In this document: piece by piece, positions 13,630 to 36,925 of the stretch | Layout of the letters: each line of letters opens with the position of its first letter | Numbering within the stretch: the first letter of the stretch is position 1 | Assembly (NCBI GenBank): GCA_020058085.1 | Contig: JAGVER010000014.1 | Location: 99,747 to 150,102 of the forward strand | Direction: 5' to 3' | Length of the DNA: 50,356 bases | DNA from: Candidatus Omnitrophota bacterium | Lineage (GTDB): Bacteria > Omnitrophota > Gorgyraeia > Gygaellales > Profunditerraquicolaceae | Position numbers and translations under genes: made by a program | Notes under the pieces: model-generated | The model's database searches: none | What the model was told of the DNA's origin: nothing | Seen by the model: the letters and a program-made list of their open reading frames with translations, nothing else

Positions 13630-13643
13630 AAAGGGAGGTTTTG

Positions 13644-18512: not shown

Positions 18513-19244
18513 ATGTCGAAAGATAAGAAAATAGCTTTGGTTGTAGGAGGGAGCCGTGGGATTGGCAGGGCAATAGCTTTAAGCCTTGCTCGTTCAGGCT
18601 TTGATATCTGGCTAACTTATCAGAGCAATCATCAAGCCGCTGAGAATACAAAAAAAGAAATAGAGAAAAACGGCGCAGCCTGCCGTTTATTTGCTTTTGA
18701 TATCTCCGACTGTAAGGCTACCGAAGAGGCCTTGGGGAAAATAAGCGACGCAACTCCGCCGCACGTAGTTGTATATAATGCCGGTATCGCCAGGGATAAT
18801 TTGATGGTTTGGATGACTAAAGATGAGTGGGATAAGGTTATTGATACTAATTTAAATGGATTTTATAATATAATGCATGTTCTGCTTTTTGCGATACTAC
18901 GCGAAAAACGCGGCAGGATTGTGATTATTTCATCTACTTCAGGAGAGACCGGACAAGCAGGACAGGTTAATTATTCTGCTTCAAAGGCCGGGCTTATCGG
19001 CGCAGCTAAGGCGCTAGCTCGGGAAGTGGGTAAGAAAAATATATTAGTGAATGTAGTTGCTCCTGGGGTTATTGATACTGAGATGACCGCAGAATTACCA
19101 AAAGAAAAAATCCTTCCCCTTATCCCCTTAAATCGGTTCGGTCAACCGGAAGATGTGGCTTCTGTAGTAAATTTCTTGTGCACTCAGGAGAATATGTATA
19201 TTCACGGACAGGTAATCGGAGTTAATGGCGGCCTAAATATCTAG
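18513..19244 (+). CDS. fabG: 3-oxoacyl-ACP reductase (SDR)
   Basis: GGSRGIGRAIA cofactor motif, NAG, and the YSASKAG catalytic YxxxK. 243 aa. Confidence 0.88.
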   Translation: MSKDKKIALVVGGSRGIGRAIALSLARSGFDIWLTYQSNHQAAENTKKEIEKNGAACRLFAFDISDCKATEEALGKISDATPPHVVVYNAGIARDNLMVWMTKDEWDKVIDTNLNGFYNIMHVLLFAILREKRGRIVIISSTSGETGQAGQVNYSASKAGLIGAAKALAREVGKKNILVNVVAPGVIDTEMTAELPKEKILPLIPLNRFGQPEDVASVVNFLCTQENMYIHGQVIGVNGGLNI

Positions 19245-19256
19245 ATAACAAAATCC

Positions 19257-20759
19257 TTGATTAAAGAGTACGATCATATAGTTGTGGGTGGTGGAGTCAG
19301 CGGTTTAACCTTAGCATTACTCCTTGCGTTAAACGGACGAAAAATTCTCCTTCTTGAGAAAGGCAGGCATATTGGTGGGAGCCTTACTCGTTTTTATAAA
19401 GAAGGCGTGCCTTTCGATACGGGTTTTCACTTTACCGGTGGTTTCTCTCCTGGTGGAATTCTGGTAGATATGCTTCATGTCTTGGGGGTTGCCGACCGCA
19501 TCAAACCTATTTTTCTTTCTGGGCCGGGGTCAGGTGTTTTTGTCTTTGATCAGGACCAAGCAGTCTACGATATGCCCTCTGGAACGGAAAACTTCCGCAC
19601 CACTTTGCATAAATATTTCCCGGATGAATCAGTTGCGATCGATGAATATTTCACCCGGGTTAAAAAAGTATGGCAGGCAACGGTATCGCTTGAACTGCGT
19701 AACATTGCGCTTTCTGCTAAACCAATTGAGGAAGACTTCATTAGTCTTGAACAAGTTCTTGATTCTTTAACTACTAATTACAAGCTTAAAGGGCTTTTGT
19801 CTATTTTTTGCTTATGCTATGGGACTAATCCTAAGGAAGTATCGTTTGCAAACCATGCTCGCGTAGCCGGCGGGTTGTATGATTCAGTAGCGCGCATTGA
19901 GCACGGAGGCGAAGCGCTTATCCGGGCATTTCGCGACTGCTTTGTAAAAGTCAACATCGAGGTCCTCTGTAATACTACTATTGCCGAATGTTCTGATGTA
20001 AAAGATGATCGTGTGGGTAACTTTGTTCTGGATAACGGGGATAAAGTTTCGGCTAATGACTGTACCTTTACCATTCATCCCCAGGAAATTTTAAAAATAC
20101 TGCCCCGTCAACACTTGAAGAAGGCTTTTGTGGAGAGGGTTTCATCTTTTGAAACATCTAACGGGTTCTTCTCTGTATTTGGCGTAGTTGAAAATGCCGA
20201 TCCCTTAACCTTTGGGCCGAGCATCACATCACTTCTTCCTTCTTACGATTTAAATGTTCTTCTAGATCCTCTTTACGATGGCCCCGGTGCCCTAGCCGTT
20301 ATTCGTAGTGTTGAAAGAAACGGCGATAAAACGCATTGTGTGATTAATGCCTTTGAGCCGGAATTTTATGCGCGGGTTAAGCAATGGGCAGATTCTTCCG
20401 TGGGGAATAGGCCTCTTGCTTATTCTGAGTATAAGGCGCGTAAAGTTAAGGAAATCAAGGAGCGAATTTGTAATTTATATCCGCAGTGTCGTCAGGATTT
20501 AAAAATTCTTGATGCGGCCTCGGTATTAACCTTTCGGGATTATCTTTTTTCTCCCGAGGGGAATGCTTATGGAATAAAACAAAAAATCGGGCAATTTAAT
20601 CTTTTTGGTAGACAGTCGCTTTCGAATATTTATGTTGCCGGCCAGAGTGCGATTTTACCGGGGTTGGTAGGAGCAATGCTTTCCTCTTTTATTATTGCCA
20701 GGAGTCTTGTTGGAAAAGAAAAATATACTAGTTTTATAGAGCAAAGATTATGCAATTAA
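19257..20759 (+). CDS. FAD/NAD(P)-dependent oxidoreductase, phytoene-desaturase (CrtI)-like family
   Basis: N-terminal HIVVGGGVSGLTLALLLA..LLLEKGRHIGG dinucleotide-binding motif. About 500 aa. TTG start assumed. Confidence 0.7.
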   Translation: MIKEYDHIVVGGGVSGLTLALLLALNGRKILLLEKGRHIGGSLTRFYKEGVPFDTGFHFTGGFSPGGILVDMLHVLGVADRIKPIFLSGPGSGVFVFDQDQAVYDMPSGTENFRTTLHKYFPDESVAIDEYFTRVKKVWQATVSLELRNIALSAKPIEEDFISLEQVLDSLTTNYKLKGLLSIFCLCYGTNPKEVSFANHARVAGGLYDSVARIEHGGEALIRAFRDCFVKVNIEVLCNTTIAECSDVKDDRVGNFVLDNGDKVSANDCTFTIHPQEILKILPRQHLKKAFVERVSSFETSNGFFSVFGVVENADPLTFGPSITSLLPSYDLNVLLDPLYDGPGALAVIRSVERNGDKTHCVINAFEPEFYARVKQWADSSVGNRPLAYSEYKARKVKEIKERICNLYPQCRQDLKILDAASVLTFRDYLFSPEGNAYGIKQKIGQFNLFGRQSLSNIYVAGQSAILPGLVGAMLSSFIIARSLVGKEKYTSFIEQRLCN

Positions 20760-21982
20760 GAAGAGTTGTTATAACCGGACTAGGGGCAATTACTCCCTTG
20801 GGTAATGATGTCGCTACGTTAATTTCTGGGATCGAATCCGGGAAGAGCGCGGTTGAGCATATTCCGGAGTGGGAGAATTATATTGGGATGCGCTGTACGG
20901 TAGCAGCACCAGCCCATATTGAGAATGAAAAATTAATTCCTCGTCAAAATCGTCGTTCTATGGGGCGTTTAAGTATTTTTGCTGTGCAGGCAGCTGAACA
21001 AGCAATCAAGGATGCCGGAATTAAAAGTGGATCATTAACCGGTGGGAAGCTAGGTTGTGTTATGGGTTCGACTATGGGAAGCGCTGAGAGTATTGCCGAG
21101 GCTTTCGAAATCATGGGCACGGGAAAAGATTTGAGTAAGTTATCCGCAACTAAATTTTTTCAGTGTGTATCGCATACTGCGGCAATGAATGTTGCCCAGT
21201 ATCTAGGTATAACCGGGTATGTTTTAGCGACATCTGCTGCCTGTGCCTCAGCATTACAGGCAATAGGTACAGGTTTTGATTTAATTCGTCTGGGTAAGCA
21301 GGATATAATGCTATGCGGAGGGGCAGAGGGTTTGCATCCGACAGTAGTAGGTTCTTTTGATGTACTTTATGCCACATCATCAAATTATAATAAAGAGCCT
21401 AAAAAGACGCCACGGCCTTTTGATTCTAAGCGTGATGGATTAGTCTGCGGCGAGGGGAGCGGAGTATTGGTTCTAGAGGATTATGAAATGGCACGTAATC
21501 GTGGGGCCAAGATTTACGCTGAAATTATTGGGTATAACAGTTGCGGTAATGGCAGCCATGTAAGTGAATCAAATCATGAAGCCATAGTTTTCTGTATTCA
21601 AGAGGCGCTAAAGAGCGCGGGCATTACATTCAAAGATATAGATTATATAAATGCTCATGCTACCGCTACTATTCAAGGGGATAAAGAAGAGGCCAATGCT
21701 ATTCGTCATATTTTTGGCGATAGTGTTCCGGTAAGCAGCCTAAAGGGTTATATTGGGCATACCTTAGGTGCATCCGGGGCGATAGAGTTGATTGCCTCTT
21801 TAATAATGATGCAGAAAGGTAAAATTTACCCGACTCTGAATTTAGAAGATCCGGATAAAGAGTGTTCCGGGATACAGCACGTGATGAAGCCCGTAAATAA
21901 AAAAATAAATATACTTTTAAAAAACTGTTTTGCTTTTGGCGGAATTAACGCGGTGTTAATTTGTAAAAGCACCCGGCCTTAA
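20750..21982 (+). CDS. fabF: beta-ketoacyl-ACP synthase II-type ketosynthase
   Basis: Catalytic Cys (ATSAACASALQAIG) and His-His (NAHATAT, GHTLGASG). 410 aa. Confidence 0.88.
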   Translation: MQLRRVVITGLGAITPLGNDVATLISGIESGKSAVEHIPEWENYIGMRCTVAAPAHIENEKLIPRQNRRSMGRLSIFAVQAAEQAIKDAGIKSGSLTGGKLGCVMGSTMGSAESIAEAFEIMGTGKDLSKLSATKFFQCVSHTAAMNVAQYLGITGYVLATSAACASALQAIGTGFDLIRLGKQDIMLCGGAEGLHPTVVGSFDVLYATSSNYNKEPKKTPRPFDSKRDGLVCGEGSGVLVLEDYEMARNRGAKIYAEIIGYNSCGNGSHVSESNHEAIVFCIQEALKSAGITFKDIDYINAHATATIQGDKEEANAIRHIFGDSVPVSSLKGYIGHTLGASGAIELIASLIMMQKGKIYPTLNLEDPDKECSGIQHVMKPVNKKINILLKNCFAFGGINAVLICKSTRP

Positions 21983-22011
21983 AGGATGGGCCGGTGTGCA
22001 CTTACTGTGCA
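21970..22011 (+). promoter_or_regulatory. conserved two-hairpin intergenic RNA motif, copy 2
   Basis: CACC[C]GGCC - TTAAAGGATG - GGCCGGTG, then TGCAC-TTACT-GTGCA. The KS stop codon TAA is the TAA of the loop. Confidence 0.6.
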
Positions 22012-22012
22012 A

Positions 22013-22062
22013 CACCCGGCGCTAAAGGAATTGCGCCGGTGTGTCCATTCTGGGCAAGGAGG
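22013..22062 (+). promoter_or_regulatory. conserved two-hairpin intergenic RNA motif, copy 3 (tandem to copy 2)
   Basis: CACC[C]GGCGC - TAAAGGAATT - GCGCCGGTG, then TGTCCA-TTC-TGGGCA, then AGGAGG 6 nt before the ACP ATG at 22069. Confidence 0.6.
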
Positions 22063-22068
22063 ATATGA

Positions 22069-22326
22069 ATGACTGAACAGGATGCTATAAGAATGACTAA
22101 TGAAGTATTTATTGATTCTTTTGAAATTCCAAAGGATAAGTTAGCCCCGCAGGCAAATATTTTTAATGACTTAGGGCTGGATAGCCTTGATATCGTAGAT
22201 TTAGTGGTGGCTTTACAGAAGAAATTCGGGATTATGATCAGAAGTGATGAACGCGTACGCAACATTCGCACTTTAGGTGATATTTATCAATTTATTTTAG
22301 TGATAAAAAAAGAGCTCGAGAAATAA
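22069..22326 (+). CDS. acyl carrier protein (ACP-1)
   Basis: 85 aa with the LGLDSLDIVDLV phosphopantetheine-attachment motif. Confidence 0.9.
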   Translation: MTEQDAIRMTNEVFIDSFEIPKDKLAPQANIFNDLGLDSLDIVDLVVALQKKFGIMIRSDERVRNIRTLGDIYQFILVIKKELEK

Positions 22327-23081
22327 TGCGGATTTTAAGAATCGTATATTTAAATATAAGTTTCTACGTTCTTACCACAACATTTTTATTAACTTGCTTG
22401 CCAGCTTTGGGTAGTTTGATGATCATCTTCGCCCTTATCTTGCCTAAACGAATGATGATGAGGCGTTTGCGCCGGGCAATTAGCTGGTTTGGCGCAGTGG
22501 TGATAAGAATTTTCCCTTGGCCGCTGGTGCGTTTAAGTTATAAAGACTTTTCCGGAAACGATACTCGCGGGCCGTATTTATTCGTTTGTAATCATCGTTC
22601 AGCTTCGGATCCTTTTTTAATGAGCGTGTTGCCTTATGAAGGTATCCAGGTAGTTAATATTTGGCCTTTTCGACTTCCGATTTTAGGAGTAATCGCTAAA
22701 AGTGCCGGGTATTTAAGTGTAAGGGAACTGCCTTTTGAAGCGTTCTTGGCTAAAACATCGAAATTACTCAAAGATGGAGTTTCTATAGCTGTATTTCCAG
22801 AAGGCACGCGTTCACGTGATAAACAAGTAGGGCAATTCCATAGCGCGATATTTCGCGTAGCTTTAGAGACAAAGATGCCTATTGTGCCCTTATGCATTAC
22901 AGGAAATGAGTTTATTCCTCCAGTCGGGTCGCCTTATTTAAGGCCGGGCTTAATTAAACTACATAGGCTTGAAGCGATAACTTGGGGAGAGTACCGAGGT
23001 TTTAGTCCGTTTAAACTTAAGAATTACGTGCGGGATATCATTATTAAGGAAGCCGCGTTAATGGACAAGAAAAATGTTTAA
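22326..23081 (+). CDS. lysophospholipid / 1-acyl-glycerol-3-phosphate acyltransferase-family protein
   Basis: N-terminal TM segments, NHRSASDP (HX4D) and VFPEGTRS motifs. Confidence 0.8.
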   Translation: MRILRIVYLNISFYVLTTTFLLTCLPALGSLMIIFALILPKRMMMRRLRRAISWFGAVVIRIFPWPLVRLSYKDFSGNDTRGPYLFVCNHRSASDPFLMSVLPYEGIQVVNIWPFRLPILGVIAKSAGYLSVRELPFEAFLAKTSKLLKDGVSIAVFPEGTRSRDKQVGQFHSAIFRVALETKMPIVPLCITGNEFIPPVGSPYLRPGLIKLHRLEAITWGEYRGFSPFKLKNYVRDIIIKEAALMDKKNV

Positions 23082-24363
23082 TTTAGATGCTTACGAAGAT
23101 TTAGAATTTGCTTCAGCGAAGAAGATAAGAAGCGTCCAGGAGAAACTATTACAGCAGCATCTTAATTATTGCATAAGCAATTCTAAATATTACCGTAGGC
23201 ATTTAAAAGGAGTAGATCTTAAGAAAATAAGTATTGATAATTTAACAAAACTACCTTTTACCGATAAATCTGATATTGAAGAATATAATAATGATTTTCT
23301 GGCAGTAAGTAAGAACAAAGTCGCGGATATAGTTTTATCATCCGGAACTACCGGAAAACCGACCAAGATTGCTTATACTGATTCGGATTTAAAACGGCTG
23401 GCATATAATGAGAAACAATCTTTTTCTTCTTGCGGTCTGACTTCTAAAGACACGGTTTTATTGACCTGTACCCTTGATCGTTGTTTTGTCGCGGGATTAG
23501 CTTATTTTTTAGGTATTCGTGCCTTGGGCGCCGCAGCTATTAGGAATGGCGTAAATAGCCTGGAGAGCCATTTTGAAATAATCAAACGTATGCGTCCCAG
23601 CGCAATTGTGGGCGTGCCAAGCTTTTTAAGAAAGTTGGGTTTGTATTTAAATGGACACGAGTTTATTGCTAACAAATCCGGAGTACGTAAATTAATTTGC
23701 ATCGGAGAGCCTCTGCGGGATAAAGATTTAAGGTTTTTAAAGCTCGGTGAAGATTTGGAGAAAATCTGGGAGGCCAAGGCACATTCTACTTATTCTTCCT
23801 CTGAGATAATCTCTACTTTTTGCGAGTGCTTTGCGCAAAGAGGCGGACACTTGCATCCTGATTTAGCTATAGTTGAAATTGTTGATGGGAAAGGCAATCC
23901 TCTTAGGGCTGGTGAATCCGGAGAACTGGTAGTTACACCTTTGCAGGTTGAAGGGATGCCTTTGGTGCGTTTTAAGACAGGAGATATAAGTTTTTTAATC
24001 AATCAACCCTGTGCTTGCGGCAGAAATTCTTTAAGGCTCGGTCCAATATTAGGCAGAAAAAAACAGATGATGAAAGTCTGCGGCACTACACTTTATCCGC
24101 AGGCAATTTTTTCTTGTTTAGAAGAGATAAAGGGAATAAACGAGTACTATGTTGTAGCTACTAGTAATGACAGGCTTTCCGACAGCATTGAGGTTTATGC
24201 GGCGGTAATTGACCGCTCGTGTACTGCGCGGGTAATTGAAAGTAAGCTTAATGCGCGTTTAAGAGTAAAACCAAAAGTATTTATTACTGATGAAGAATTA
24301 GTACGAGAGCGGGTTTATAGCCCTAGATCGCGTAAACCCGTGCGTTTTTTTGACAGGAGGTAA
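23074..24363 (+). CDS. adenylate-forming enzyme, phenylacetate-CoA ligase / F390 synthetase-like (PaaK family)
   Basis: SSGTTGKPTK P-loop-like motif. 429 aa, with the domain order of COG1541-type ligases. Candidate starter-unit activator. Confidence 0.7.
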   Translation: MFNLDAYEDLEFASAKKIRSVQEKLLQQHLNYCISNSKYYRRHLKGVDLKKISIDNLTKLPFTDKSDIEEYNNDFLAVSKNKVADIVLSSGTTGKPTKIAYTDSDLKRLAYNEKQSFSSCGLTSKDTVLLTCTLDRCFVAGLAYFLGIRALGAAAIRNGVNSLESHFEIIKRMRPSAIVGVPSFLRKLGLYLNGHEFIANKSGVRKLICIGEPLRDKDLRFLKLGEDLEKIWEAKAHSTYSSSEIISTFCECFAQRGGHLHPDLAIVEIVDGKGNPLRAGESGELVVTPLQVEGMPLVRFKTGDISFLINQPCACGRNSLRLGPILGRKKQMMKVCGTTLYPQAIFSCLEEIKGINEYYVVATSNDRLSDSIEVYAAVIDRSCTARVIESKLNARLRVKPKVFITDEELVRERVYSPRSRKPVRFFDRR

Positions 24364-24368: not shown

Positions 24369-25850
24369 TTGGCTAGTTGTCAGGCGATAACGCCTAATTT
24401 TGAATTTAGTAATCAGGAGATAGAAGAAGCAGTGAGAAATAATCGTCTTCTTTCTATGGAGATAGAATTTTCTCTGCGTTGTAATTTTCACTGTCAGTAT
24501 TGTTATGTGCCACAGCAGCCCGTTTTTGATAATGAACTTAATCCTGAAGAGATACAGGGCGCGATACTGCAAGCTCGCGATTTAGGCGCAAGGAAAATTA
24601 TTGTTTTAGGCGGTGAGCCGATGGCATATCCGTATATTTTAAAGATGCTTAAGTTTATCCGAGGTGAAGGCTTAGGCATAGAGATGTTTACCAATGGTTT
24701 CCAGATTAATGCTGATATAGCAAGCCAGCTTTTTGCTTTAGGTGTAGACGTAATCTTAAAGATGAATAGCCAGAATGAGAATATTCAAGATGCGCTTGCC
24801 GGGAAGAAAGGCGCGCATAAGATTATACAGGAAGCTTTTTATAATCTAAAACAGGCAGGTTATCCCGCTAAAGATAAACGTTTGGGTGTTAGTACTATTA
24901 TTTGCAAGCAGAATTTTGATGAGTTAATCGGGATGTGGGAATGGCTGCGTAAACAAAATATTGAACCGTATTTTGAAATAATGACCCCGCAGGGAAAAGC
25001 GCGCAGCAATGAATGGCTCTATGTTGATCTGCCTGAACTTAAAGATTTATTCTTTAAAATATCCGAAATAGACCGGCAGAAGTTTGGTCTTAAATGGAAT
25101 CCTCAGCCGCCTTTAATGGGGATTAAATGTCTAAGGCATCAATTCTCCTGCCTGCTTAATTCGCAAGGTTATGTTTTGCCATGTGTTGGGGTAAATATAC
25201 CATTAGGTAATATTCGTCAGAATAGTTTAAAAAATATCCTTGCGGAAAGCGAGGTAATGGAAGATTTAAGAAACTACCGGGTTAATATTAAAGGACCTTG
25301 TCGTGAGTGTAGTAAATCTGATAATTGTTACGGCTGCAGAGGCGCTGCTTATCAGTTAACCGGAGATTATTTAGCCAGCGATCCTTTATGTTGGGAGAAT
25401 GTTGAGCACCAGAATGATATTGTGCATTTACCGATGGCCGTAGATAGGCTTATACCGCAAAAGCCGCCTATGCGTGTAATTGATAATCTAATTAAGGTCG
25501 GAGAACGGGCCGCGGAATTTAATGTAACCATATCTAATGATATGCTTTTTGTGCGTGAGGATGGCGTACTTGAAGAATCGGTTTATTTAGAGATGATCGC
25601 GCAGGCCGCCGCCGCATTAACCGGGTTCAAAAATTTAGGAGTGAATGATAAGGTAGTCGACGGGCTTTTGCTGGGTGCTAAGAAATTTGATCTTTTGGGT
25701 AAAGCGCATATAGGAGATACGTTGACTATATCGATCTCTAAATATGCGCGTTTTGGCGACTTTGCTATTATCAAAGGCAAGGTATCTCTTGGCGAAGATA
25801 TGATTGCACAAGGCGAGATTAAGATCTGGCAGAATAAAGGGGATAGCTAA
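24369..25850 (+). CDS. radical SAM / SPASM-type protein fused to a C-terminal hotdog (ApeI/FabZ-like) domain
   Basis: AGGAGG 9 nt before TTG 24369. CNFHCQYC (CxxxCxxC). Cys-rich auxiliary region FSCLLNSQGYVLPC ... CRECSKSDNCYGC. The C-terminal ~130 aa (PMRVIDNLI...YLEMIAQAAA...LLGAKKF) reads as a hotdog fold. Confidence 0.7.
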   Translation: MASCQAITPNFEFSNQEIEEAVRNNRLLSMEIEFSLRCNFHCQYCYVPQQPVFDNELNPEEIQGAILQARDLGARKIIVLGGEPMAYPYILKMLKFIRGEGLGIEMFTNGFQINADIASQLFALGVDVILKMNSQNENIQDALAGKKGAHKIIQEAFYNLKQAGYPAKDKRLGVSTIICKQNFDELIGMWEWLRKQNIEPYFEIMTPQGKARSNEWLYVDLPELKDLFFKISEIDRQKFGLKWNPQPPLMGIKCLRHQFSCLLNSQGYVLPCVGVNIPLGNIRQNSLKNILAESEVMEDLRNYRVNIKGPCRECSKSDNCYGCRGAAYQLTGDYLASDPLCWENVEHQNDIVHLPMAVDRLIPQKPPMRVIDNLIKVGERAAEFNVTISNDMLFVREDGVLEESVYLEMIAQAAAALTGFKNLGVNDKVVDGLLLGAKKFDLLGKAHIGDTLTISISKYARFGDFAIIKGKVSLGEDMIAQGEIKIWQNKGDS

Positions 25851-25851
25851 G

Positions 25852-26484
25852 ATGTTTAAGAAGTTTATCTTTATTTCTATTCTCTGTTTGGGTTTCTCCC
25901 CTTCTCTTGGTTGTTCTGATACAGAGGTAACTCCCTTGCTTAAGAGATTAGAAGAAAAGATATCCGGGGTAAAGACTTTAGAGACAGGGTTTATTCAAGA
26001 GAAGAAATTAGCTGTCTTTAATCGTGCAGTTGTTCTGGAAGGAAAAGTTTTTATTCAAGAGCCGGATTTTTTTGCTTGGCATACTGATAAACCAGTTCAT
26101 TACATAATGGTCATAAAAGGAGATATTATAAAGCAATGGGATGAGGATACTAGGCAGGTTCAGTCTTTGTCGCTCTCTAGAAATCCTGCACTCCTCGTCG
26201 CGGTGAACCAGATGAAAGTTTGGTTCTCCGGGAAATATTCCAGTCTTTTGAAGGACTATGAGGCGAAAGCTATCTCCTCTAAACCGATCATATTGGAATT
26301 TACGCCTAAGGTAAGCGCGGAAGCTTTTAATATTATAAATAAAGTCAGAATGACTTTTCAAGAGGATGAACGCTATATAGCAAGAATAGATATAGAAGAA
26401 AAGAATCAAGATTCGACCAGCCTCGTATTTATTAATACTAAAATAAATTCTTCGATAAACCACTCTGCCTGGGAATTAAGATAA
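25852..26484 (+). CDS. LolA-like outer-membrane lipoprotein carrier family protein
   Basis: MFKKFIFISILCLGFSPSLGC signal sequence. About 210 aa. Its position ahead of the MMPL exporter matches APE-type clusters. ATG 25852 is preferred over 25804. Confidence 0.65.
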   Translation: MFKKFIFISILCLGFSPSLGCSDTEVTPLLKRLEEKISGVKTLETGFIQEKKLAVFNRAVVLEGKVFIQEPDFFAWHTDKPVHYIMVIKGDIIKQWDEDTRQVQSLSLSRNPALLVAVNQMKVWFSGKYSSLLKDYEAKAISSKPIILEFTPKVSAEAFNIINKVRMTFQEDERYIARIDIEEKNQDSTSLVFINTKINSSINHSAWELR

Positions 26485-26485
26485 C

Positions 26486-28864
26486 GTGTTTGATAGGTAT
26501 TTTTCTATAGTCAGTGGTTTTGTCTCTCTTCATAAGCGCGCAATCATAACCGCGATAGTCACTTTAGTTATCCTTGCGTGTTCCGGGGTAGTCTTTATTA
26601 AATACGATAATAATATTGAGTTAATGCTCCCGCGGGACAAGGATATAGCTTTAAGCATGCGCTTTCTGCGCCAGTCACATTTTTCAGATAAGGCTATCGT
26701 ATCATTGGGTTTGAATTCCGAAGCGCATACTACTAGCGATCTTATTCTTGCTGCGGATAAATTTTGTGCGGAGTTAAAGTCGCCGTTAATTACAAAAGTT
26801 ACCCTCGGTATTTCAGGGGATAATCCGCAGGAGCAGATAATTGATTTCTTAAAGTTCGCTCCGCAACTTATTACTCCCGTAGAATTGATTAAAAGTGACA
26901 ATCAGCTTAATGCTCAAGGAGTAAATGCGGCTCTAAAGAGCAACTATCATAAATTGCTTACTCCGGGAGGCACTTTTATGATGCCTTTTATCCGCCTTGA
27001 CCCTTTAGGAATTAAGACGGGTATCCTGCGCAACCTGAGTAAGATCTCTAATGCTTTAGGCTATAATATTATTGTTGAGGACGGACATTTTCTAAGTCCG
27101 GATAAAAGGCACACTTTACTGATTATAAATACAAATATTCCGCTTACTGATGGCTTTGGTGCGCGCAAACTGGTAAATTTTCTCCAGGAAAAGATAAAGT
27201 CCCTCCCTGTTTTTGTAAGCGGCTATATTATTGCTGGGCATATGCACGCGGTAAGTAATGAAGATATTATCAAAAAAGATATTCAGCGTACGGTTACTAT
27301 TGCTATAATCGCGTTCTTGATCGTATTTTTAGCGACTTTTAAGGATCTGAGAGCGCTCATTTTTTTAATTATACCTTTGGGGGCGGTGGCAATTGCGATG
27401 AATTTTTCTGCGTTTGTCTTTGGGAAACTTTCTTATTTTATTGTCGGTTTAGGCGCGGTTATTATCGGCGTAGCCGATGATTATGGAATTCATGCTTATG
27501 TAGCAGTGCATACTAAAGGCAGGAGAGATGCGGTTGGCGAGATAGCCAAGCCGCTTGTTATTGCCGCGCTTACTACGATAAGTGTATTTGCCACTTTCTT
27601 TTTTTCTTCGGTTAAAGGCTATCATCAGCTTGCCCTATTTGCGATCACCAGTATTATTCTTTGTCTCTTGTTTGTCTTATTGATTTTTCCGCACTTCCTT
27701 AAGGAGCATCAGAAGCCGGATAAAAGATTGGATTCTAATATTAAAGTGCAGAGGCTGATTTCAGATAAAGCATGTATCTGGCTCTGGGTTTTAGCCATGG
27801 TTATTCTTATTGGGTTTTCTTTAAAGACTAAGTTTAATAGCGATATATCCCAGTTTGACGGGAGCAAGAAAGAGATTATTTCCGTGGAGGAAGAATTTAA
27901 AGAGACTTATGGCCGCCAAGAGCAACCGGCTATACTTGTTGTTTCAGTAAAGGGTAAGGAGAATGCCTTAGAGAGAAATGAGGAGATCTATCTTAAGGCC
28001 GTATCTTTGGTGGGAGAGAAGGAGTACAGTACTTTTACCTCTCTCTGGCCTTCGCTTAAGAGAAGAAAAGCCAACGTTTTGTTTTGGGAAAAGTTTTGGC
28101 GCGGGGAAAGGCAAGATAAACTAGAGTTGTTGTTGAGCCGGTATTCTGCGCGATATAATTTCTCCAGCGAAGCCTTCGCGCCTTTTTTCGCTAATTTATA
28201 CACTGGGATGAAAATAGAGGAAGGTCCGGATAATTTGGAGCTATTTCAGAATATAAAAGAAAGGTTTATTCAGGAGGATGAAGGTTCCTGGCAGGTGTTT
28301 TCATTCTTTCCAGATAAAGATGAATTTATTAATCCACTGATTAAATTGAGCAAAGATAACCCCGGGGTTTTTATCGTATCGCGTAAAGCGTTCTCTAAGG
28401 CAGTTTCAAATTCTATAACGCGCGAAATTTTATCTCTTTCTTTTATTGCGGGGATACTAGTGCTTATTTTGACAGTAGCCTTATTAAAAGATATAAAATT
28501 AACGCTTATTTCCCTGTTATCAGTGGCAAGCGCCATTATTGCTATCCTCGGTACATTTGCTATTTTCAGGATTCCTATAAATGCCGCGGCGGTTATCGCT
28601 TCAATGATGGTGGTTGGCCTGTGTATTGATTATGGTGTTTTTATGCTTTACAGTTTCAGGCATAAGTTAAATACCGGGACAGTAAAGGCAATCTGGGTCT
28701 CTGCCTTAACTACTCTTATCGGGGCATTTTCGCTTTTATTCGCGAAGCACCCGATCTTATTTTCCATAGGTTTAACTTTAGTTGCGGGGTTATTTAGCGG
28801 TTATATTTCTTCCCAAACGGTAATTCCCGCTCTCTACCGGATTTTTGTAAAGGAAAAGGGATAA
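26486..28864 (+). CDS. MMPL/RND-superfamily exporter
   Basis: 792 aa with two 5-6-TM bundles separated by large soluble loops. Paired with the LolA-like gene. GTG start. Confidence 0.75.
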   Translation: MFDRYFSIVSGFVSLHKRAIITAIVTLVILACSGVVFIKYDNNIELMLPRDKDIALSMRFLRQSHFSDKAIVSLGLNSEAHTTSDLILAADKFCAELKSPLITKVTLGISGDNPQEQIIDFLKFAPQLITPVELIKSDNQLNAQGVNAALKSNYHKLLTPGGTFMMPFIRLDPLGIKTGILRNLSKISNALGYNIIVEDGHFLSPDKRHTLLIINTNIPLTDGFGARKLVNFLQEKIKSLPVFVSGYIIAGHMHAVSNEDIIKKDIQRTVTIAIIAFLIVFLATFKDLRALIFLIIPLGAVAIAMNFSAFVFGKLSYFIVGLGAVIIGVADDYGIHAYVAVHTKGRRDAVGEIAKPLVIAALTTISVFATFFFSSVKGYHQLALFAITSIILCLLFVLLIFPHFLKEHQKPDKRLDSNIKVQRLISDKACIWLWVLAMVILIGFSLKTKFNSDISQFDGSKKEIISVEEEFKETYGRQEQPAILVVSVKGKENALERNEEIYLKAVSLVGEKEYSTFTSLWPSLKRRKANVLFWEKFWRGERQDKLELLLSRYSARYNFSSEAFAPFFANLYTGMKIEEGPDNLELFQNIKERFIQEDEGSWQVFSFFPDKDEFINPLIKLSKDNPGVFIVSRKAFSKAVSNSITREILSLSFIAGILVLILTVALLKDIKLTLISLLSVASAIIAILGTFAIFRIPINAAAVIASMMVVGLCIDYGVFMLYSFRHKLNTGTVKAIWVSALTTLIGAFSLLFAKHPILFSIGLTLVAGLFSGYISSQTVIPALYRIFVKEKG

Positions 28865-28870
28865 GTTTCT

Positions 28871-29533
28871 ATGATAAAAAAGCTCATTATTATATTAACT
28901 ATATCTGTCTGCGGCTGTAGCAGTATACCATTCAGGCATTCGGATTATCTTTCTTTTGACGGTATTGACCCGCAAACCTTAAGGCTTAATTTCTCAGAAG
29001 AGTTACCGCAGGAATTTGAATTATTAAATAGCGCTATCTTTAGGTATTCCTATCTTCACTTCTCAGCTTTAGGGGTTGTTCGCGTGGATACGTTTAAAAA
29101 AAGCCTTGATCTCGCCGGTTTTAACCATCTAGGAGTGATGTTCTTTGAGCTTAGCCTCGACAGTGAAGGCAAAGTGGATTGTAAATATGCCTTACCTGAG
29201 TTCACCAAGCATAAGGATTTCGCCTCCTTTGTCCTAAATGATATAAAAAAGATATACTTTGACCGCGTTCCTCCTCAGTCGGCAGTAGTAAAGCGGGAGA
29301 GACGCAAGGTTGTTTTTAGGGATTCTTTAAAAGATACGTTTACAGAGTATGTTTTTGCCGGAGAAGGCCGGTTTCTGGCAGAGAAGAATTATTATGAGAA
29401 ACATAGGAAAGTTTGGAGCGTTTTTTATTACGAATACACGCCTAAGGATGGTAAAATATATCCAGAGGGGATTCTTCTTAAACATTATAAGTACGGGTAT
29501 AAATTGATTATTAGATTAAAGGAGATACGTTAA
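28871..29533 (+). CDS. lipoprotein (DUF3261-like by position)
   Basis: MIKKLIIILTISVCGC lipobox. About 220 aa. It occupies the slot after MMPL that a DUF3261 lipoprotein holds in APE clusters. The assignment is by position only. Confidence 0.5.
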   Translation: MIKKLIIILTISVCGCSSIPFRHSDYLSFDGIDPQTLRLNFSEELPQEFELLNSAIFRYSYLHFSALGVVRVDTFKKSLDLAGFNHLGVMFFELSLDSEGKVDCKYALPEFTKHKDFASFVLNDIKKIYFDRVPPQSAVVKRERRKVVFRDSLKDTFTEYVFAGEGRFLAEKNYYEKHRKVWSVFYYEYTPKDGKIYPEGILLKHYKYGYKLIIRLKEIR

Positions 29534-29535: not shown

Positions 29536-29916
29536 GTGAGCCAGCTTATGCGTTCGATCAAGGGTTGTATGTCGGATTTAGAGTTTGCTCCGGATAATAC
29601 TTTGAGCGCTAATTTTATATTTCCCGTTGATTTTTTAGGTTTTAAGGGACATTTTCCGGGTAAACCTATTCTTCCCGGGGTATGCGAAATACAAGCAGTA
29701 TTACTTATGCTTGAAGAGTTTAAGAAGAAGAATGTGCTGTTAAGGGAGATAGTTCAGATTAAGTTTTTTTCTCCTGTTTCTTGCGATGAAAGGATAGCTT
29801 TTAAATTAGAAGAGAAATTGGAGCTTAACGGAGAAGTTAGCGTTAAGGCTATGGTGGCAAGTGAAGACAAAAGAATTGCGGAGATTCATTTAAGGGTTAA
29901 TATCATCAATAAGTGA
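29536..29916 (+). CDS. hotdog-fold 3-hydroxyacyl-ACP dehydratase (FabZ-like)
   Basis: FKGHFPGKPILPGV matches the FabZ active-site motif (HFPxxPxxPG). 126 aa. GTG start with AAGGAG upstream. Confidence 0.75.
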   Translation: MSQLMRSIKGCMSDLEFAPDNTLSANFIFPVDFLGFKGHFPGKPILPGVCEIQAVLLMLEEFKKKNVLLREIVQIKFFSPVSCDERIAFKLEEKLELNGEVSVKAMVASEDKRIAEIHLRVNIINK

Positions 29917-29932: not shown

Positions 29933-30418
29933 ATGAGCGTGAGAAGAAAAGAATACTTTGAGAAAAACGCCGGTTATCCTGAACCTGTAACTTTCAGCCT
30001 AAAAAGAAGGGCGAGCTTTAACGAAGTAGATGTTATGGGTATTGTTTGGTATGGCCACTATGCTATTTATTTTGAAGAGGCGTTAAGAGAATTGGGAAGG
30101 CGCTGTGGATTATCTTATCAGGATTATTTTGCCGCTGGTTTGCAGGCTCCTATCGTATCGTTCCACATTGATTATCAACAGCCTCTTTATCTGGATGAAG
30201 AATTTACAATTAAGGCTTCTTTAGTATGGAGCGAGGGTGCTAAGATTAATACTGAATATGAAATCATTAAAGAGGACGGGAGTATTGCTACCCGTGGCTA
30301 TACCATACAGGTGTTAGTAGAGGCGCAATCAGCCGGCGAAGCATGCATTATTGTCCCGGAATTAATCGAGCGTTTACGTAAGCGCTGGTTAGAAGGGGAA
30401 TTCAAGTGCCTGAGGTAA
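29933..30418 (+). CDS. 4HBT/YbgC-type acyl-CoA or acyl-ACP thioesterase
   Basis: 161 aa. FNEVDVMGIVWYGHYAIYFEEA is typical of 4-hydroxybenzoyl-CoA thioesterase-family hotdog proteins. Confidence 0.75.
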   Translation: MSVRRKEYFEKNAGYPEPVTFSLKRRASFNEVDVMGIVWYGHYAIYFEEALRELGRRCGLSYQDYFAAGLQAPIVSFHIDYQQPLYLDEEFTIKASLVWSEGAKINTEYEIIKEDGSIATRGYTIQVLVEAQSAGEACIIVPELIERLRKRWLEGEFKCLR

Positions 30419-31539
30419 AGGTTGTTATTGCCGGTTATGATTTAATTACTGCGTATGGTTTGGGGGTTTCTCCTCTCTGGAGAGGGCTTTTGGAAAAGAA
30501 GACCTGCATTAATAATCTAAGACGATTTTCCGTTAAATCTTTCCAAAGCGTTAACGCTGCTTGTGTTGACGGGCTCACTTATCTGAAAAATAAATCTTTA
30601 GCCTTACAGATGCTCGAAAAAGTATTCGCCAGAAATAATTTAGGTATTCCTAGAGATTCATTTTTAATTTTAGCTACCACCATAGGGGAAATAGATATAT
30701 TAGAAAAATATGTTTTAAGGGGAAGGGGCAGCGCAAGAGGGAGCGTCGTGACCAATCTTTTGAGAAAAACAGGTAGGTTAGCCAAAATAAAAGTTCCCGG
30801 GATGGTTGTTTCTTGCGCTTGTGCGTCTTCAAGCGCCGCTATCGCTCAAGCCGCGAGTTTAATTTGCAACGGTAAAAAAGATTCTGTTTTAGTTGCAGCA
30901 GCAGACAGTGTAAGCGAGTTTGTCTTTAGCGGTTTTTCTTCTCTCATGGCTTTGGACAAGAAGAGGGCCAAGCCCTTTGATAAGGACAGGAGCGGTCTAT
31001 CTTTAGGGGAAGCAGCAGGTTTCATCTTATTGATGAGCGAGGAGCGAGCAAGGAAGGAAAGAAAGAAGATACAGGGTGAAGTTTTGGGCTGGGGGTTGAA
31101 TTGCGACGCAAATCATATAACCGGTCCGTCAGCCGACGGAAGCGGTTTAAGCGGGGCGATTTTAAAGGCATTAAAGTCGGCGAAAGTCTCTTCTTCTGAT
31201 ATAGGCTGTATTTCAGCCCATGGGACAGGGACTCTTTATAATGATTCTATGGAGATTAAAGCATTCAGGAAGATCTATAAAAGACCTCTACCCGCTTATT
31301 CTATCAAAGGGGCTATCGGGCATACTTTAGGCGCTGCCGGATTAGTTGAGGCGATCGTGGCCTTGATGATTCTGCAAGAAAAAGTAATCCCCGCTACTGT
31401 GGGTTTAGAAAATATTGATCGGGAAGCCAAGGGTTGGGTTTCTTTATTCCCGCGAAAACTAAAGAAGAATACGGTTATTTTAAATAATTGTGGATTCGGC
31501 GGAATAAACGCAGCGTTGGTCTTGAGGGTAAATGATTAA
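30406..31539 (+). CDS. ketosynthase (KS-2)
   Basis: Cys in VVSCACASSSAAIAQA and His-His in SAHGTGT / GHTLGAAG. 377 aa. GTG start. Confidence 0.85.
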   Translation: MPEVKVVIAGYDLITAYGLGVSPLWRGLLEKKTCINNLRRFSVKSFQSVNAACVDGLTYLKNKSLALQMLEKVFARNNLGIPRDSFLILATTIGEIDILEKYVLRGRGSARGSVVTNLLRKTGRLAKIKVPGMVVSCACASSSAAIAQAASLICNGKKDSVLVAAADSVSEFVFSGFSSLMALDKKRAKPFDKDRSGLSLGEAAGFILLMSEERARKERKKIQGEVLGWGLNCDANHITGPSADGSGLSGAILKALKSAKVSSSDIGCISAHGTGTLYNDSMEIKAFRKIYKRPLPAYSIKGAIGHTLGAAGLVEAIVALMILQEKVIPATVGLENIDREAKGWVSLFPRKLKKNTVILNNCGFGGINAALVLRVND

Positions 31540-36790: not shown

Positions 36791-36793
36791 TGA

Positions 36794-36835: not shown

Positions 36836-36853
36836 GAATTAATCCCGTTGAGT

Positions 36854-36884: not shown

Positions 36885-36925
36885 GTTGACGAGACGGGAT
36901 AAAGCAAATAACGAGAGGAGAAAAA

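What the first reader, a model, noticed from the sequence alone, without database searches (positions are those of the whole stretch)
24369..25850. Unusual fusion: radical SAM + SPASM-like Cys-rich domain fused to an ApeI/FabZ-type hotdog domain
The 493-aa ORF has an N-terminal CNFHCQYC radical SAM cluster. It has an auxiliary Cys pattern (C-x5-G-x4-C, then CRECSKSDNCYGC = Cx2Cx5Cx2C) of the SPASM/twitch kind. Its C-terminal ~130 aa read as a hotdog dehydratase-like domain. It sits immediately after the adenylating enzyme, the slot held by a stand-alone hotdog dehydratase in APE clusters. A second stand-alone FabZ-like hotdog lies at 29536, and APE dehydratases are reported to act as heterocomplexes. 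Tethering radical chemistry to the dehydratase or ACP-binding module suggests modification of an ACP-bound beta-hydroxy or enoyl intermediate. I do not recognise this architecture from characterised enzymes.
Basis: partly seen in the sequence, partly recalled or inferred. Interest (0 to 1): 0.7.

Follow-up and report, generated by a model that had tools for sequence, protein, structure and literature searches.

The report
Radical SAM enzyme fused to dehydratase
A real, widely conserved but unstudied gene joins an iron-sulfur "radical SAM" enzyme to one half of a two-part fatty-acid-type dehydratase, inside a lipid- or pigment-building gene cluster of anaerobic bacteria. This suggests, without proving it, that radical chemistry is done directly on the growing carrier-bound chain.

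Summary
ORF 24369..25850 (+, 493 aa) is one uninterrupted gene with three modules:
- a radical SAM core (C38-x3-C42-x2-C45, GGE);
- a full eight-Cys SPASM domain;
- a C-terminal hotdog domain.

The hotdog domain is ApeP-type, not ApeI/FabZ-type. Its best solved relative is chain B of the X. doucetiae ApeI:ApeP dehydratase heterocomplex (6QSR).

The fusion is not an artefact. Full-length orthologues occur in hundreds of uncultured anaerobes (Omnitrophota, Nitrospirota, Desulfobacterota, PVC phyla). They always sit in the same collinear cluster, an aryl-polyene-like cluster that also carries B12-radical-SAM genes and a phytoene-desaturase-like gene. All cluster-binding Cys and a FabZ-type Glu (E408) are invariant in 75/75 orthologues.

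The stand-alone ApeI-like hotdog (29536..29916) keeps the catalytic His in 52/52 orthologues and never has the acid. The fused domain has the acid and never the His. The two half-sites are complementary, so I predict one composite dehydratase active site.

My reading: the protein is the ApeP subunit of the cluster's heterodimeric dehydratase, and it holds a three-cluster radical SAM tailoring enzyme at the elongation machinery. The radical reaction itself is unknown.

No curated family or paper describes this architecture. I rate it a new variant of known kinds and moderately to highly interesting.

The parts
24369..25850 (+). Whole ORF, 493 aa: radical SAM + SPASM + ApeP-like hotdog fusion (stop codon included).
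   Evidence: An AGGAGG Shine-Dalgarno lies 8 nt upstream of the TTG start.
24369..24455 (+). N-terminal extension, residues 1-29, with a near-invariant Cys4. Function unknown.
   Evidence: C4 is present in 74/75 orthologues. The extension is conserved in A1, which supports the upstream TTG start. Residues 1-9 have low pLDDT.
24456..24968 (+). Radical SAM core, residues 30-200. It includes C38-x3-C42-x2-C45 (24480..24503) and the GGE SAM-binding motif G81-G82-E83 (24609..24617).
   Evidence: Pfam PF04055, E=1e-19. The motif residues are invariant in 75/75 orthologues. Foldseek matches SkfB, PqqE, SuiB and anSME.
25128..25391 (+). SPASM domain, residues 254-341, with eight Cys (C254, C261, C272, C311, C314, C320, C323, C341). 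This is enough to ligate two auxiliary [4Fe-4S] clusters.
   Evidence: Pfam PF13186, 35 bits against a cut-off of 21.5. All eight Cys and G267 are invariant in 75/75. It is the most conserved module, with 71% mean pairwise identity.
25449..25835 (+). ApeP-like hotdog domain, residues 361-489. The central helix Y-L-E408-M-I-A-Q412 carries the FabZ-type catalytic Glu (25590..25592). No catalytic His is present.
   Evidence: phmmer against 6QSR_B, E=2e-6. Foldseek 6qsr_B, target TM 0.78. E408 and Q412 are invariant in 75/75. The His-equivalent positions 396 and 400 are never His.
29536..29916 (+). Stand-alone ApeI-like hotdog, 126 aa, the predicted heterodimer partner. It has G-H39-F-P (29650..29652). 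Q53 (29692..29694) occupies the position of the FabZ catalytic Glu.
   Evidence: Pfam ApeI-like and FabA hits. A profile hits 6QSR_A with E=2.4e-7. H39 is present in 52/52 orthologues. Position 53 is Q, L, M or T and never E or D.
23074..24363 (+). PaaK/ApeH-like adenylating enzyme directly upstream; the presumed starter-unit loader.
   Evidence: AMP-binding and AMP-binding_C_2 domains. It is adjacent in 74/80 related loci.
22069..22326 (+). Acyl carrier protein 1 (85 aa, DSL motif).
   Evidence: Conserved in 64/80 loci.
18513..23081 (+). Upstream core genes: FabG-type ketoreductase 18513..19244, phytoene-desaturase-like flavoprotein 19257..20759, ketosynthase KS1 20750..21982, ACP1, and PlsC-type acyltransferase 22326..23081.
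   Evidence: The order is collinear in related loci.
25852..29533 (+). Export module: LolA-like lipoprotein (probable ATG at 25852, ending 26484), MMPL/RND transporter 26486..28864, and DUF3261 28871..29533. These correspond to ApeL, ApeM and ApeN.
29933..39024 (+). Downstream cluster genes: 4HBT thioesterase, KS2/CLF2, two B12-radical SAM genes (32089..33345 and 33327..34712), GT2-DUF2062, LpxL-like acyltransferase, ACP2 (36926..37204) and KS3/CLF3.
16151..17584 (+). A further B12-binding radical SAM gene at the probable 5' edge of the cluster.
   Evidence: A CX3CX2C motif is present.
41195..45196 (+). Probable 3' part of the cluster: FAD oxidoreductase 41195..42349, a fourth B12-radical SAM 42334..43770, and a second AMP-binding ligase 43748..45196.

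Best explanation
The protein is a bifunctional subunit of an aryl-polyene-like type II polyketide/fatty-acid synthase of anaerobes.

(1) Shown: one ORF encodes a radical SAM core, a SPASM domain with eight Cys and an ApeP-type hotdog. The fusion is old and inherited as a unit.

(2) Strongly inferred (p about 0.75): the hotdog domain is the ApeP half of the cluster's heterodimeric 3-hydroxyacyl-ACP dehydratase. It pairs with the stand-alone ApeI-like protein (29536..29916). The single composite active site uses His39 of ApeI and Glu408 of the fused domain, as in the inter-subunit His/Glu site of FabZ.

(3) Inferred (p about 0.85): the N-terminal module is a competent radical SAM enzyme with three [4Fe-4S] clusters.

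(4) Inferred (p about 0.5): because it is welded to the dehydratase that every elongation cycle visits, its substrate is the ACP-tethered enoyl or polyenoyl chain.

(5) Speculative (p about 0.2-0.3): the 5'-deoxyadenosyl radical abstracts an activated, allylic-type hydrogen from that chain. The two auxiliary clusters then remove the electron. The net result is a two-electron oxidation, either an extra desaturation or a C-C ring closure or cross-link. This would parallel the anSME, AhbD and PqqE class of SPASM enzymes.
For: Architecture and fold.

Conservation:
- More than 120 full-length protein clusters were listed from each of two searches, all with PF04055+PF13186+PF22817 except three rows that lack one of the first two domains (two of them truncated).
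- 373 relatives were found in 185,579 species genomes, and the 80 best all span both parts.
- In 75 full-length orthologues, C38/C42/C45, GGE, all 8 SPASM Cys, E408 and Q412 are invariant. Distances for the N-terminal part and the hotdog correlate with r=0.85.

Dehydratase half-site complementarity:
- The ApeI-like partner has His in 52/52 orthologues and never an acid at the FabZ-Glu position.
- The fused domain has the Glu and never a His.
- No other DH-type hotdog is in the cluster; the only other hotdog-fold protein is the 4HBT thioesterase.

Pairing precedent:
- Natural ApeP-ApeI double-hotdog fusions exist: P0175 and P0221.
- ApeI/ApeP is a heterodimer with a single active site, and ApeH-ApeI fusions occur in A. 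baumannii (PMC8041823).

Same slot: a related cluster has a stand-alone ApeP-like gene in the order ACP-PlsC-[ApeP]-LolA-MMPL-DUF3261-ApeI-TE-KS-CLF (L085). The radical SAM-SPASM part is therefore an N-terminal add-on to the ApeP subunit.

Collinear synteny holds across phyla.
Against: - No experiment exists. Heterodimer formation, Fe-S content, SAM cleavage and the substrate are all untested.
- The Pfam ApeP-like score of the window protein itself is below threshold (12.5 against 27 bits).
- Distant relatives have lost the CX3CX2C motif but keep the hotdog and most SPASM Cys: P0139 from a Planctomycetes MAG and P0149 from Desulfamplus magnetovallimortis. Radical SAM catalysis is therefore dispensable in some lineages, and the fusion may persist for reasons other than substrate channelling.
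- Nearest-family similarity (AhbD/NirJ2 at 113 bits against a cut-off of 500; PqqE and SkfB at E about 1e-9) is too remote to transfer a reaction.
- I could not inspect the model's inter-domain geometry.
- The cluster also has four B12-radical SAM enzymes that could carry the key radical chemistry.
Confidence: 0.5

Rival explanations
1. The hotdog domain is only an acyl-ACP recognition or docking module, the lipid counterpart of the RRE domain of peptide-modifying SPASM enzymes. Dehydration would be done by the ApeI-like protein alone or by the housekeeping FabZ.
For: The fused domain lacks the catalytic His. SPASM maturases commonly carry substrate-recognition domains; the Foldseek neighbours SuiB, SkfB and PqqE are examples.
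Against: E408 and Q412, the FabZ catalytic-helix motif, are invariant in 75/75 orthologues and in stand-alone ApeP relatives. The ApeI-like partner never carries the acid residue, so an ApeI homodimer would lack it. A stand-alone ApeP occupies the same slot in a cluster with no radical SAM gene in the 16.5-kb stretch read.
Confidence: 0.15
2. The radical SAM module acts on something other than the ACP-tethered chain. Candidates are the free starter acid before the ligase loads it, the released lipid, or a partner protein or cofactor. The fusion would only secure stoichiometry or co-localisation.
For: The gene is adjacent to the adenylating enzyme in 74/80 loci. The two variants without the CX3CX2C motif examined both lack that ligase next door. 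The remote best family matches, AhbD and NirJ, act on free small molecules.
Against: Three Nitrospirota loci with an intact radical SAM motif also lack the adjacent ligase, so the correlation is weak. The fusion is to the ApeP subunit specifically and is maintained across phyla with co-varying domains.
Confidence: 0.2
3. The N-terminal module is mainly a redox or structural Fe-S scaffold rather than a SAM-cleaving catalyst. For example, it could be an electron conduit to the neighbouring B12-radical SAM or flavoenzymes.
For: Distant variants lose CX3CX2C yet keep C261, C311, C314, C320 and C341 and the hotdog. SPASM is the most conserved module at 71% identity.
Against: In the core family the CX3CX2C and GGE SAM-binding motifs are invariant in 75/75 orthologues. 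That degree of conservation is not expected for a relic.
Confidence: 0.08
4. The C-terminal hotdog is a thioesterase of the 4HBT type that releases the radical-modified chain.
For: One distant homologue (P0164) gives a faint 4HBT hit, E=0.0065.
Against: The window protein has no 4HBT hit. Its best sequence and structure matches are ApeP and FabZ. A dedicated 4HBT thioesterase is encoded at 29933..30418.
Confidence: 0.04
5. The fusion is an assembly, frameshift or annotation artefact of two separate genes.
For: None was found. Some database entries with extra fusions, such as the 720-aa P0153 with LolA, could be gene-calling read-through.
Against: The frame is uninterrupted. The same 490-500 aa architecture appears in hundreds of independent assemblies from several phyla. 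No split form occurs among the 80 loci.
Confidence: 0.01

Closest known systems
ApeI:ApeP dehydratase heterocomplex of aryl polyene biosynthesis (X. doucetiae, PDB 6QSR; A. baumannii ApeH-ApeI/ApeP)
   Same: The C-terminal domain is the closest sequence match (E=2e-6) and structure match (TM 0.78) to ApeP. The stand-alone partner matches ApeI. The cluster has the same ApeH, K, L, M, N, O, C, Q, D and J-type genes. The known complex is a heterodimer with a single active site, and fusion of a hotdog subunit to another pathway enzyme (ApeH-ApeI) is known.
   Different: Here ApeP carries a 345-aa radical SAM/SPASM module at its N-terminus. X. doucetiae ApeP has a His (DGH) that this family lacks. 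Identity to ApeP is only about 25%. The cluster adds B12-radical SAM genes and phytoene-desaturase-like genes, and the window holds no ApeB-type SAM-dependent methyltransferase gene next to the cluster.
SPASM-domain radical SAM enzymes (anSME, PqqE, SkfB, SuiB, AhbD/NirJ)
   Same: It has the CX3CX2C and GGE motifs and a SPASM domain with two fully Cys-ligated auxiliary-cluster sites. The Cys spacing resembles anSME. These enzymes are the Foldseek and HMM neighbours.
   Different: No equivalog cut-off is approached; the best is 113 bits against 500. There is no peptide substrate or RRE and no tetrapyrrole context. The last Cys pair is spaced x2, not x3. The C-terminal hotdog is, as far as I found, unique among them.
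'Ladderane-type' FASII-like clusters (Kuenenia kuste3335-3352, Desulfotalea psychrophila, Geobacter, Pelobacter; the antiSMASH 'ladderane' class in non-anammox phyla)
   Same: The gene repertoire is shared: phenylacetyl-CoA-ligase-like enzyme, phytoene-desaturase-like flavoprotein, paired radical SAM genes, several FabF paralogues including inactive ones, ACPs, FabG, a FabZ-like protein, a glycosyltransferase and an MMPL-type membrane protein (PMC2649909, PMC4790861, PMC9902471).
   Different: The published gene lists for Kuenenia mention no radical SAM/SPASM-hotdog fusion. The products of the non-anammox clusters are unknown. I did not test orthology to the Kuenenia genes directly, because no sequences were available in the tools.
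Jaw5/C10P radical SAM cyclopropanases working with an iterative PKS
   Same: They set the precedent that a radical SAM enzyme modifies a carrier-bound enoyl intermediate during polyketide elongation (review PMC13459092).
   Different: Those enzymes are HemN-like, not SPASM, and are stand-alone proteins that act with a type I iterative PKS. Here the radical SAM is covalently fused to a type II dehydratase subunit.

Membership tests
Radical SAM superfamily (PF04055) | CX3CX2C motif ligating the SAM-binding [4Fe-4S] cluster | tested here: met
   C38/C42/C45 (CNFHCQYC) are invariant in 75/75 orthologues. Pfam gives 71.8 bits against a cut-off of 29.5.
Radical SAM superfamily (PF04055) | GGE SAM-binding motif and a partial TIM-barrel fold | tested here: met
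   G81-G82-E83 are invariant. The AF2 model has alternating beta/alpha elements over residues 29-204, and Foldseek matches radical SAM structures with E down to 1e-14.
Radical SAM superfamily (PF04055) | Reductive cleavage of SAM to the 5'-deoxyadenosyl radical | not testable with these tools
   This needs anaerobic reconstitution and a 5'-deoxyadenosine assay.
SPASM subfamily (PF13186) | Seven-Cys motif CX9-15GX4C ... CX2CX5CX3C ... C for two auxiliary clusters | tested here: met
   The motif reads C254-x12-G267-x4-C272 (plus C261), C311-x2-C314-x5-C320-x2-C323, and C341. The last spacing is x2, not x3. All are invariant in 75/75. Pfam gives 35 bits against 21.5.
ApeP-type hotdog dehydratase subunit (PF22817) | Profile match above the Pfam gathering score | tested here: not met
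   The window protein scores 12.5 bits against a cut-off of 27 (E=0.11). The precomputed Pfam listing does record PF22817 for all listed homologues.
ApeP-type hotdog dehydratase subunit (PF22817) | Hotdog fold most similar to solved ApeP | tested here: met
   phmmer against 6QSR_B gives E=2e-6 over residues 9-141 of the domain. Foldseek gives 6qsr_B target TM 0.78, rmsd 2.6 Å and 25% identity.
ApeP-type hotdog dehydratase subunit (PF22817) | Co-occurs and pairs with an ApeI-type hotdog to form a heterodimer with a single active site | tested here: inconclusive
   An ApeI-like gene is found in 52 of the 57 related loci that reach DUF3261; some of the other five end at the contig edge before the ApeI slot. 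The His-only and Glu-only half-sites are complementary. Natural ApeP-ApeI double hotdogs exist. Physical pairing was not testable.
FabZ/FabA homodimeric dehydratases (PF07977) | Catalytic His in the GHFP motif together with Glu/Asp in the same polypeptide | tested here: not met
   The fused domain has variable residues (R, G, D, S and others; never His) at position 396, the FabZ-His position, in all 75 orthologues. It has no Pfam FabA hit.
AhbD / NirJ heme-pathway radical SAM enzymes (TIGR04545, TIGR04055) | Score above the NCBIfam equivalog cut-off | tested here: not met
   The scores are 113 and 112 bits against a cut-off of 500. The window has no tetrapyrrole genes.
4HBT-type hotdog thioesterase (PF03061/PF13279) | Profile match | tested here: not met
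   The window protein has no hit. A separate 4HBT protein is encoded at 29933..30418.
Aryl polyene (APE) biosynthetic gene cluster | ApeH ligase, ApeR/O/C ketosynthases, ApeQ KR, ApeI/P DH, ApeE/F ACPs, ApeK TE, ApeL/M/N export, and ApeD/J acyl- and glycosyl-transferases | tested here: met
   A counterpart of each is present by Pfam domain when compared with the E. coli ape gene table in PMC8253772. This is membership of the broad cluster type only, because five radical SAM genes and several flavoenzymes are extra.
Aryl polyene (APE) biosynthetic gene cluster | Product is an aryl polyene built on a 4-hydroxybenzoate starter | not testable with these tools
   The product and the starter unit are unknown.
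Ladderane biosynthesis cluster (anammox) | Occurs in ladderane-producing anammox Planctomycetes, with orthology to the amx genes | not tested
   The relatives found are mostly Omnitrophota, Nitrospirota and Desulfobacterota MAGs. Only similarity of gene repertoire to the published lists was assessed.

The most novel reading that the evidence does not exclude
A radical SAM/SPASM catalytic domain has been built into the elongation machinery of a type II PKS/FAS through the dehydratase heterodimer. It would act processively on the ACP-bound polyene under anoxia to forge C-C bonds, producing carbocyclic or cross-linked lipid chains, for example an aromatic head group made without chorismate or strained rings. 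That would make it the key enzyme of the orphan 'ladderane-type' clusters that antiSMASH finds in non-anammox anaerobes.
Probability: 0.12. Interest if true: 0.9.

Novelty: new variant of a known kind. Interest (0 to 1): 0.6.

Why it matters
Radical SAM enzymes that work on carrier-bound fatty-acyl or polyketide chains are very few. A 2026 review names only the proposed ladderane enzymes and Jaw5 (PMC13459092).

Here a fully equipped three-cluster radical SAM enzyme is physically fused to a subunit of the chain-processing dehydratase. The fusion is conserved in hundreds of uncultured anaerobes across at least six phyla, always in the same about 30-kb cluster.

That cluster type is repeatedly reported as 'ladderane' or 'aryl polyene' by genome-mining surveys of anoxic habitats, and it has no known product.

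The fusion gives a concrete, testable entry point:
- a two-protein complex (fusion protein plus ApeI-like partner) with defined point mutants (E408, H39, C38/C42/C45);
- a defined carrier protein (ACP1).

It also illustrates a general principle. Complementary half-site hotdog heterodimers can serve as adaptors that recruit tailoring enzymes to a type II synthase.

Tried and rejected
- **Exact protein in public assemblies.** None is on record.
- **Cultured, tractable carrier.** A second homologue search seeded with a Geobacter-MAG orthologue and two cluster look-ups gave only MAG and metagenome entries. The exceptions were Desulfamplus magnetovallimortis, which has a degenerate radical SAM motif, and a partial Salinispira pacifica entry.
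- **AhbD/NirJ/PqqE membership.** Rejected, because scores are far below the cut-offs.
- **RiPP-maturase reading.** Rejected. There is no RRE or precursor peptide, and the context is a type II synthase.
- **Thioesterase reading of the hotdog.** Rejected.
- **Loss of the radical SAM motif tracking loss of the adjacent ligase.** Both variants without the CX3CX2C motif lack the ligase. Three intact Nitrospirota loci also lack it, so I dropped this as evidence.
- **Contexts of other stand-alone ApeP relatives.** L084, L088, L089 and L090 are contigs too short or cut to be informative. Only L085 was useful.
- **Primary ApeI:ApeP paper (Grammbitter et al., JACS 2019).** It is not in the library. The 'single active site' statement is taken from PMC8041823.
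- **Chromobacterium paper found by keywords.** Irrelevant.
- **Inter-domain geometry.** I could not read it from the AlphaFold model or model the heterodimer.
Full report
**Observation**

- It starts at a TTG preceded by AGGAGG at an 8-nt spacing, 5 nt after the stop of the upstream adenylating-enzyme gene.
- The first 29 residues are conserved in homologues, including a near-invariant Cys4. The long N-terminus is therefore real.
- Pfam finds Radical_SAM (32-189, E=1e-19) and SPASM (254-314, E=1.7e-8), both above threshold. It finds an ApeP-like hotdog only below threshold (361-487, 12.5 bits against 27).
- The quoted motifs are all literally present: CNFHCQYC, C261-x5-G-x4-C272 and C311-x2-C-x5-C-x2-C323. 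With C254 and C341 they make eight SPASM cysteines. That is enough for two fully ligated auxiliary [4Fe-4S] clusters, spaced much as in anSME.

**Is the C-terminus a hotdog?**

Yes, and specifically ApeP-type.
- The isolated C-terminal 146 residues hit PDB 6QSR chain B with E=2e-6. Chain B is the 180-aa subunit of the X. doucetiae ApeI:ApeP dehydratase heterocomplex; chain A, 119 aa, is ApeI.
- An AlphaFold2 model built on 29 homologues (pLDDT 82.4, pTM 0.81) gives a long helix (405-421) wrapped by a sheet of six strands, at 373-387 and 431-489.
- Foldseek matches this part best to 6qsr_B (target TM 0.78, E=1e-10), then to FabZ structures including anammox amxFabZ. The N-terminal two-thirds match SkfB, PqqE, SuiB and anSME.
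- In a library of 1.84 billion representative proteins, the domain has 1180 relatives at E≤1e-3. Their lengths fall into several groups. Pfam scans of chosen examples show what three of the groups are:
  - 450-526 aa: radical SAM-SPASM fusions;
  - about 290-325 aa: ApeP-ApeI double hotdogs;
  - about 720 aa: forms with an added PlsC or LolA domain.
- Of the 140-155-aa stand-alone group, only P0130 was scanned, and it gave no Pfam hit. Precomputed annotation marks others of that length (P0160, P0144, P0167) as ApeP-like.

**Is the fusion real and conserved?**

- Two independent searches of 5.8 billion proteins each listed 120 clusters of about 490-500 aa. All but three rows carry PF04055+PF13186+PF22817, at 55-91% and 69-100% identity to the respective queries. 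Where named at all, they are called only 'radical SAM protein'.
- A scan of one genome per species (185,579 species) found 373 relatives. The 80 best all cover residues 1 to about 490. They come from MAGs of Omnitrophota, Nitrospirota/Thermodesulfovibrionales, Desulfobacterota (including Geobacter- and Pelobacter-like), Planctomycetota, Verrucomicrobiota, Kiritimatiellia, Lentisphaerae and Ratteibacteria.
- In 75 full-length orthologues the following are invariant: the three radical SAM Cys, GGE, G267, all eight SPASM Cys, E408, Q412, G432, L434 and G436.
- SPASM is the most conserved module at 71% mean pairwise identity. Pairwise distances of the N-terminal part and the hotdog correlate with r=0.85, so the two parts have evolved together as a unit.
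- An artefact is excluded.

**Context**

The window (40% GC) carries a large co-directional cluster from about 16151 to about 45196. In order it encodes:
- a B12-radical SAM and an HTH regulator;
- FabG-type KR, a phytoene-desaturase-like flavoprotein, KS1, ACP1 and a PlsC-type acyltransferase;
- a PaaK/ApeH-like ligase and then the fusion protein;
- LolA, MMPL and DUF3261;
- the ApeI-like hotdog and a 4HBT thioesterase;
- KS2/CLF2, two B12-radical SAM genes, GT2-DUF2062 and an LpxL-like acyltransferase;
- ACP2, KS3/CLF3 and two unknown ORFs;
- an FAD oxidoreductase, a fourth B12-radical SAM and a second AMP ligase.

The order from FabG to GT2 is collinear in essentially every related locus long enough to show it. 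For example, the ligase is adjacent in 74/80 loci, LolA in 73/80 and ApeI in 52/80, limited by contig ends.

Gene for gene this is the aryl-polyene (ape) repertoire (PMC8253772), plus five radical SAM genes and several flavoenzymes. It also resembles the 'ladderane-type' clusters:
- Rattray et al. described them in Kuenenia, Desulfotalea, Geobacter and Pelobacter (PMC2649909).
- antiSMASH reports them in non-anammox anaerobes including Omnitrophota, with unknown function (PMC9902471).

**How the hotdog part most likely works**

In FabZ, each active site uses a His (GHFP motif) from one subunit and a Glu (central helix, E-x-x-A-Q) from the other.
- Aligned to FabZ, the stand-alone ApeI-like protein has G-H39-F-P. 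It has Gln at the Glu position.
- In 52 orthologues the His is invariant, and the Glu position is Q, L, M or T, never acidic.
- The fused domain is the mirror image. Y-L-E408-M-I-A-Q is invariant. The FabZ-His position (396) and the position of the X. doucetiae ApeP 'DGH' His (400) are never His.
- The same pattern holds within the natural double-hotdog proteins: the N-terminal half has the Glu and the C-terminal half has the His.
- No other DH-type hotdog is in the cluster.
- A related cluster (L085) has a stand-alone ApeP-like gene in the identical slot: ACP-PlsC-[ApeP]-LolA-MMPL-DUF3261-ApeI-TE-KS-CLF. No radical SAM or desaturase-like gene lies in the 16.5-kb stretch I read.
- Published work describes ApeI/ApeP as a heterodimer with a single active site, and notes an ApeH-ApeI fusion in A. 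baumannii (PMC8041823).

I therefore infer, at p about 0.75, that the fused domain is the ApeP half of the cluster's dehydratase. It would contribute Glu408 to one composite site with His39 of the protein encoded at 29536..29916.

**How the radical SAM part most likely works**

Strict conservation of every cluster ligand and of the SAM-binding motif argues that the module is an active three-cluster radical SAM enzyme (p about 0.85).

Being welded to a subunit that the ACP-bound chain visits in every elongation cycle, its most economical substrate is that chain (p about 0.5).

By analogy with SPASM enzymes whose auxiliary clusters accept the substrate-radical electron (anSME, AhbD, PqqE class), I favour a net two-electron oxidation of the enoyl or polyenoyl thioester. 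Hydrogen abstraction would start it, and it would end in either an extra desaturation or a C-C ring closure or cross-link. This last step is speculation (p about 0.2-0.3).

The sequence neighbours are too remote to transfer a reaction. AhbD and NirJ2 score 113 bits against a cut-off of 500, and PqqE and SkfB reach E about 1e-9.

**Evidence that cuts the other way**

Distant relatives have lost CX3CX2C while keeping the hotdog and most SPASM Cys. They are a Planctomycetes MAG and the cultured Desulfamplus magnetovallimortis (WP_080798463.1).
- The dehydratase-subunit role is therefore the indispensable one.
- The radical step is a dispensable tailoring step, or the Fe-S part has a second role, such as electron transfer.
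- Both such variants lack the adjacent ligase. Three intact Nitrospirota loci lack it too, so I draw nothing from that.
- The four B12-radical SAM genes could carry the cluster's key radical chemistry.

**Comparison and novelty**

Each module belongs to a known kind: the radical SAM superfamily, the SPASM subfamily and ApeP-type hotdogs. Hotdog heterodimers and one hotdog fusion (ApeH-ApeI) are known.
- New here is the covalent union of a SPASM radical SAM enzyme with a type II synthase dehydratase subunit.
- No NCBIfam model covers it. Among the papers I could search, six full-text searches returned none that describes it.

I class it as a new variant of known kinds. It is common in sequence databases and uncharacterised.

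**Verdict**

The fusion and the heterodimer logic hold. The domain is ApeP-type, not ApeI-type. Action on an ACP-bound intermediate is plausible and untested.
- Interest is 0.6.

Noticed in passing
window 16151..17584, 32089..33345, 33327..34712, 42334..43770: Four B12-binding radical SAM genes lie in one cluster, each with an intact CX3CX2C motif. The adjacent, overlapping pair 32089/33327 is conserved in the related loci, and it recalls the paired radical SAM genes Kuste3342/3343 and DP1853/1855 of Rattray et al., whose adjacency I did not check.
   Followed up: partly
window 25804..26484: The mechanical ORF for the LolA-like gene overlaps the fusion gene by 47 nt. An ATG at 25852, 1 nt after the fusion gene's stop, gives MFKKFIFISILCLGFSPSLGC, a lipoprotein-like signal ending in a Cys. 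That ATG is the likely true start.
   Followed up: partly
window 24378..24380 (Cys4 of the fusion protein): A Cys in the N-terminal extension is present in 74/75 orthologues. It lies outside the recognised cluster-binding motifs and its role is unknown. It could be an extra Fe-S ligand or a catalytic thiol.
   Followed up: no
L081 10001..11581 (Desulfamplus magnetovallimortis LT828540.1); L082/L083 (Planctomycetes MAG): These are naturally degenerate versions of the fusion. The CX3CX2C motif is lost or truncated while the hotdog and most SPASM Cys are kept. The D. magnetovallimortis cluster lacks the PaaK-like ligase, and its KS and CLF are fused into one 581-aa protein.
   Followed up: partly
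P0152 (717 aa), P0153 (720 aa): These are larger fusions of the same protein with its genomic neighbours: PlsC acyltransferase at the N-terminus, or LolA at the C-terminus. They could be real multi-domain proteins or gene-calling read-through.
   Followed up: no
L086 335..2818: An ApeP-ApeI double-hotdog gene lies directly after an aromatic ammonia-lyase gene. This suggests an APE-like cluster primed with a cinnamate or coumarate starter.
   Followed up: no
window 39061..39669 and 39927..41198: Two ORFs inside the cluster (202 and 423 aa) have no Pfam match. The 202-aa one had a relative in only one of the 80 loci.
   Followed up: no
window 31532..32092 and 38377..39024: Two short KS-like proteins (186 and 215 aa) follow KS2 and KS3. 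They look like truncated chain-length-factor partners, much shorter than ApeC-type CLFs.
   Followed up: no
window 47..14096: Housekeeping genes lie upstream of the cluster: carbamoyl-phosphate synthase large subunit, Fpg, a PEMT/ICMT-like methyltransferase, dihydroorotate dehydrogenase B subunits and a V/A-type ATPase operon. An HTH regulator (17773..18453) follows the first B12-radical SAM gene (16151..17584), just upstream of FabG.
   Followed up: no
window 45249..48521 (- strand) and 48820..50151: A divergent block encodes a PMT_2 (ArnT-like) glycosyltransferase, a GT2 and an unknown protein. It is followed by another amine-oxidase-family flavoprotein on the + strand. These may be further lipid-tailoring genes.
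   Followed up: no
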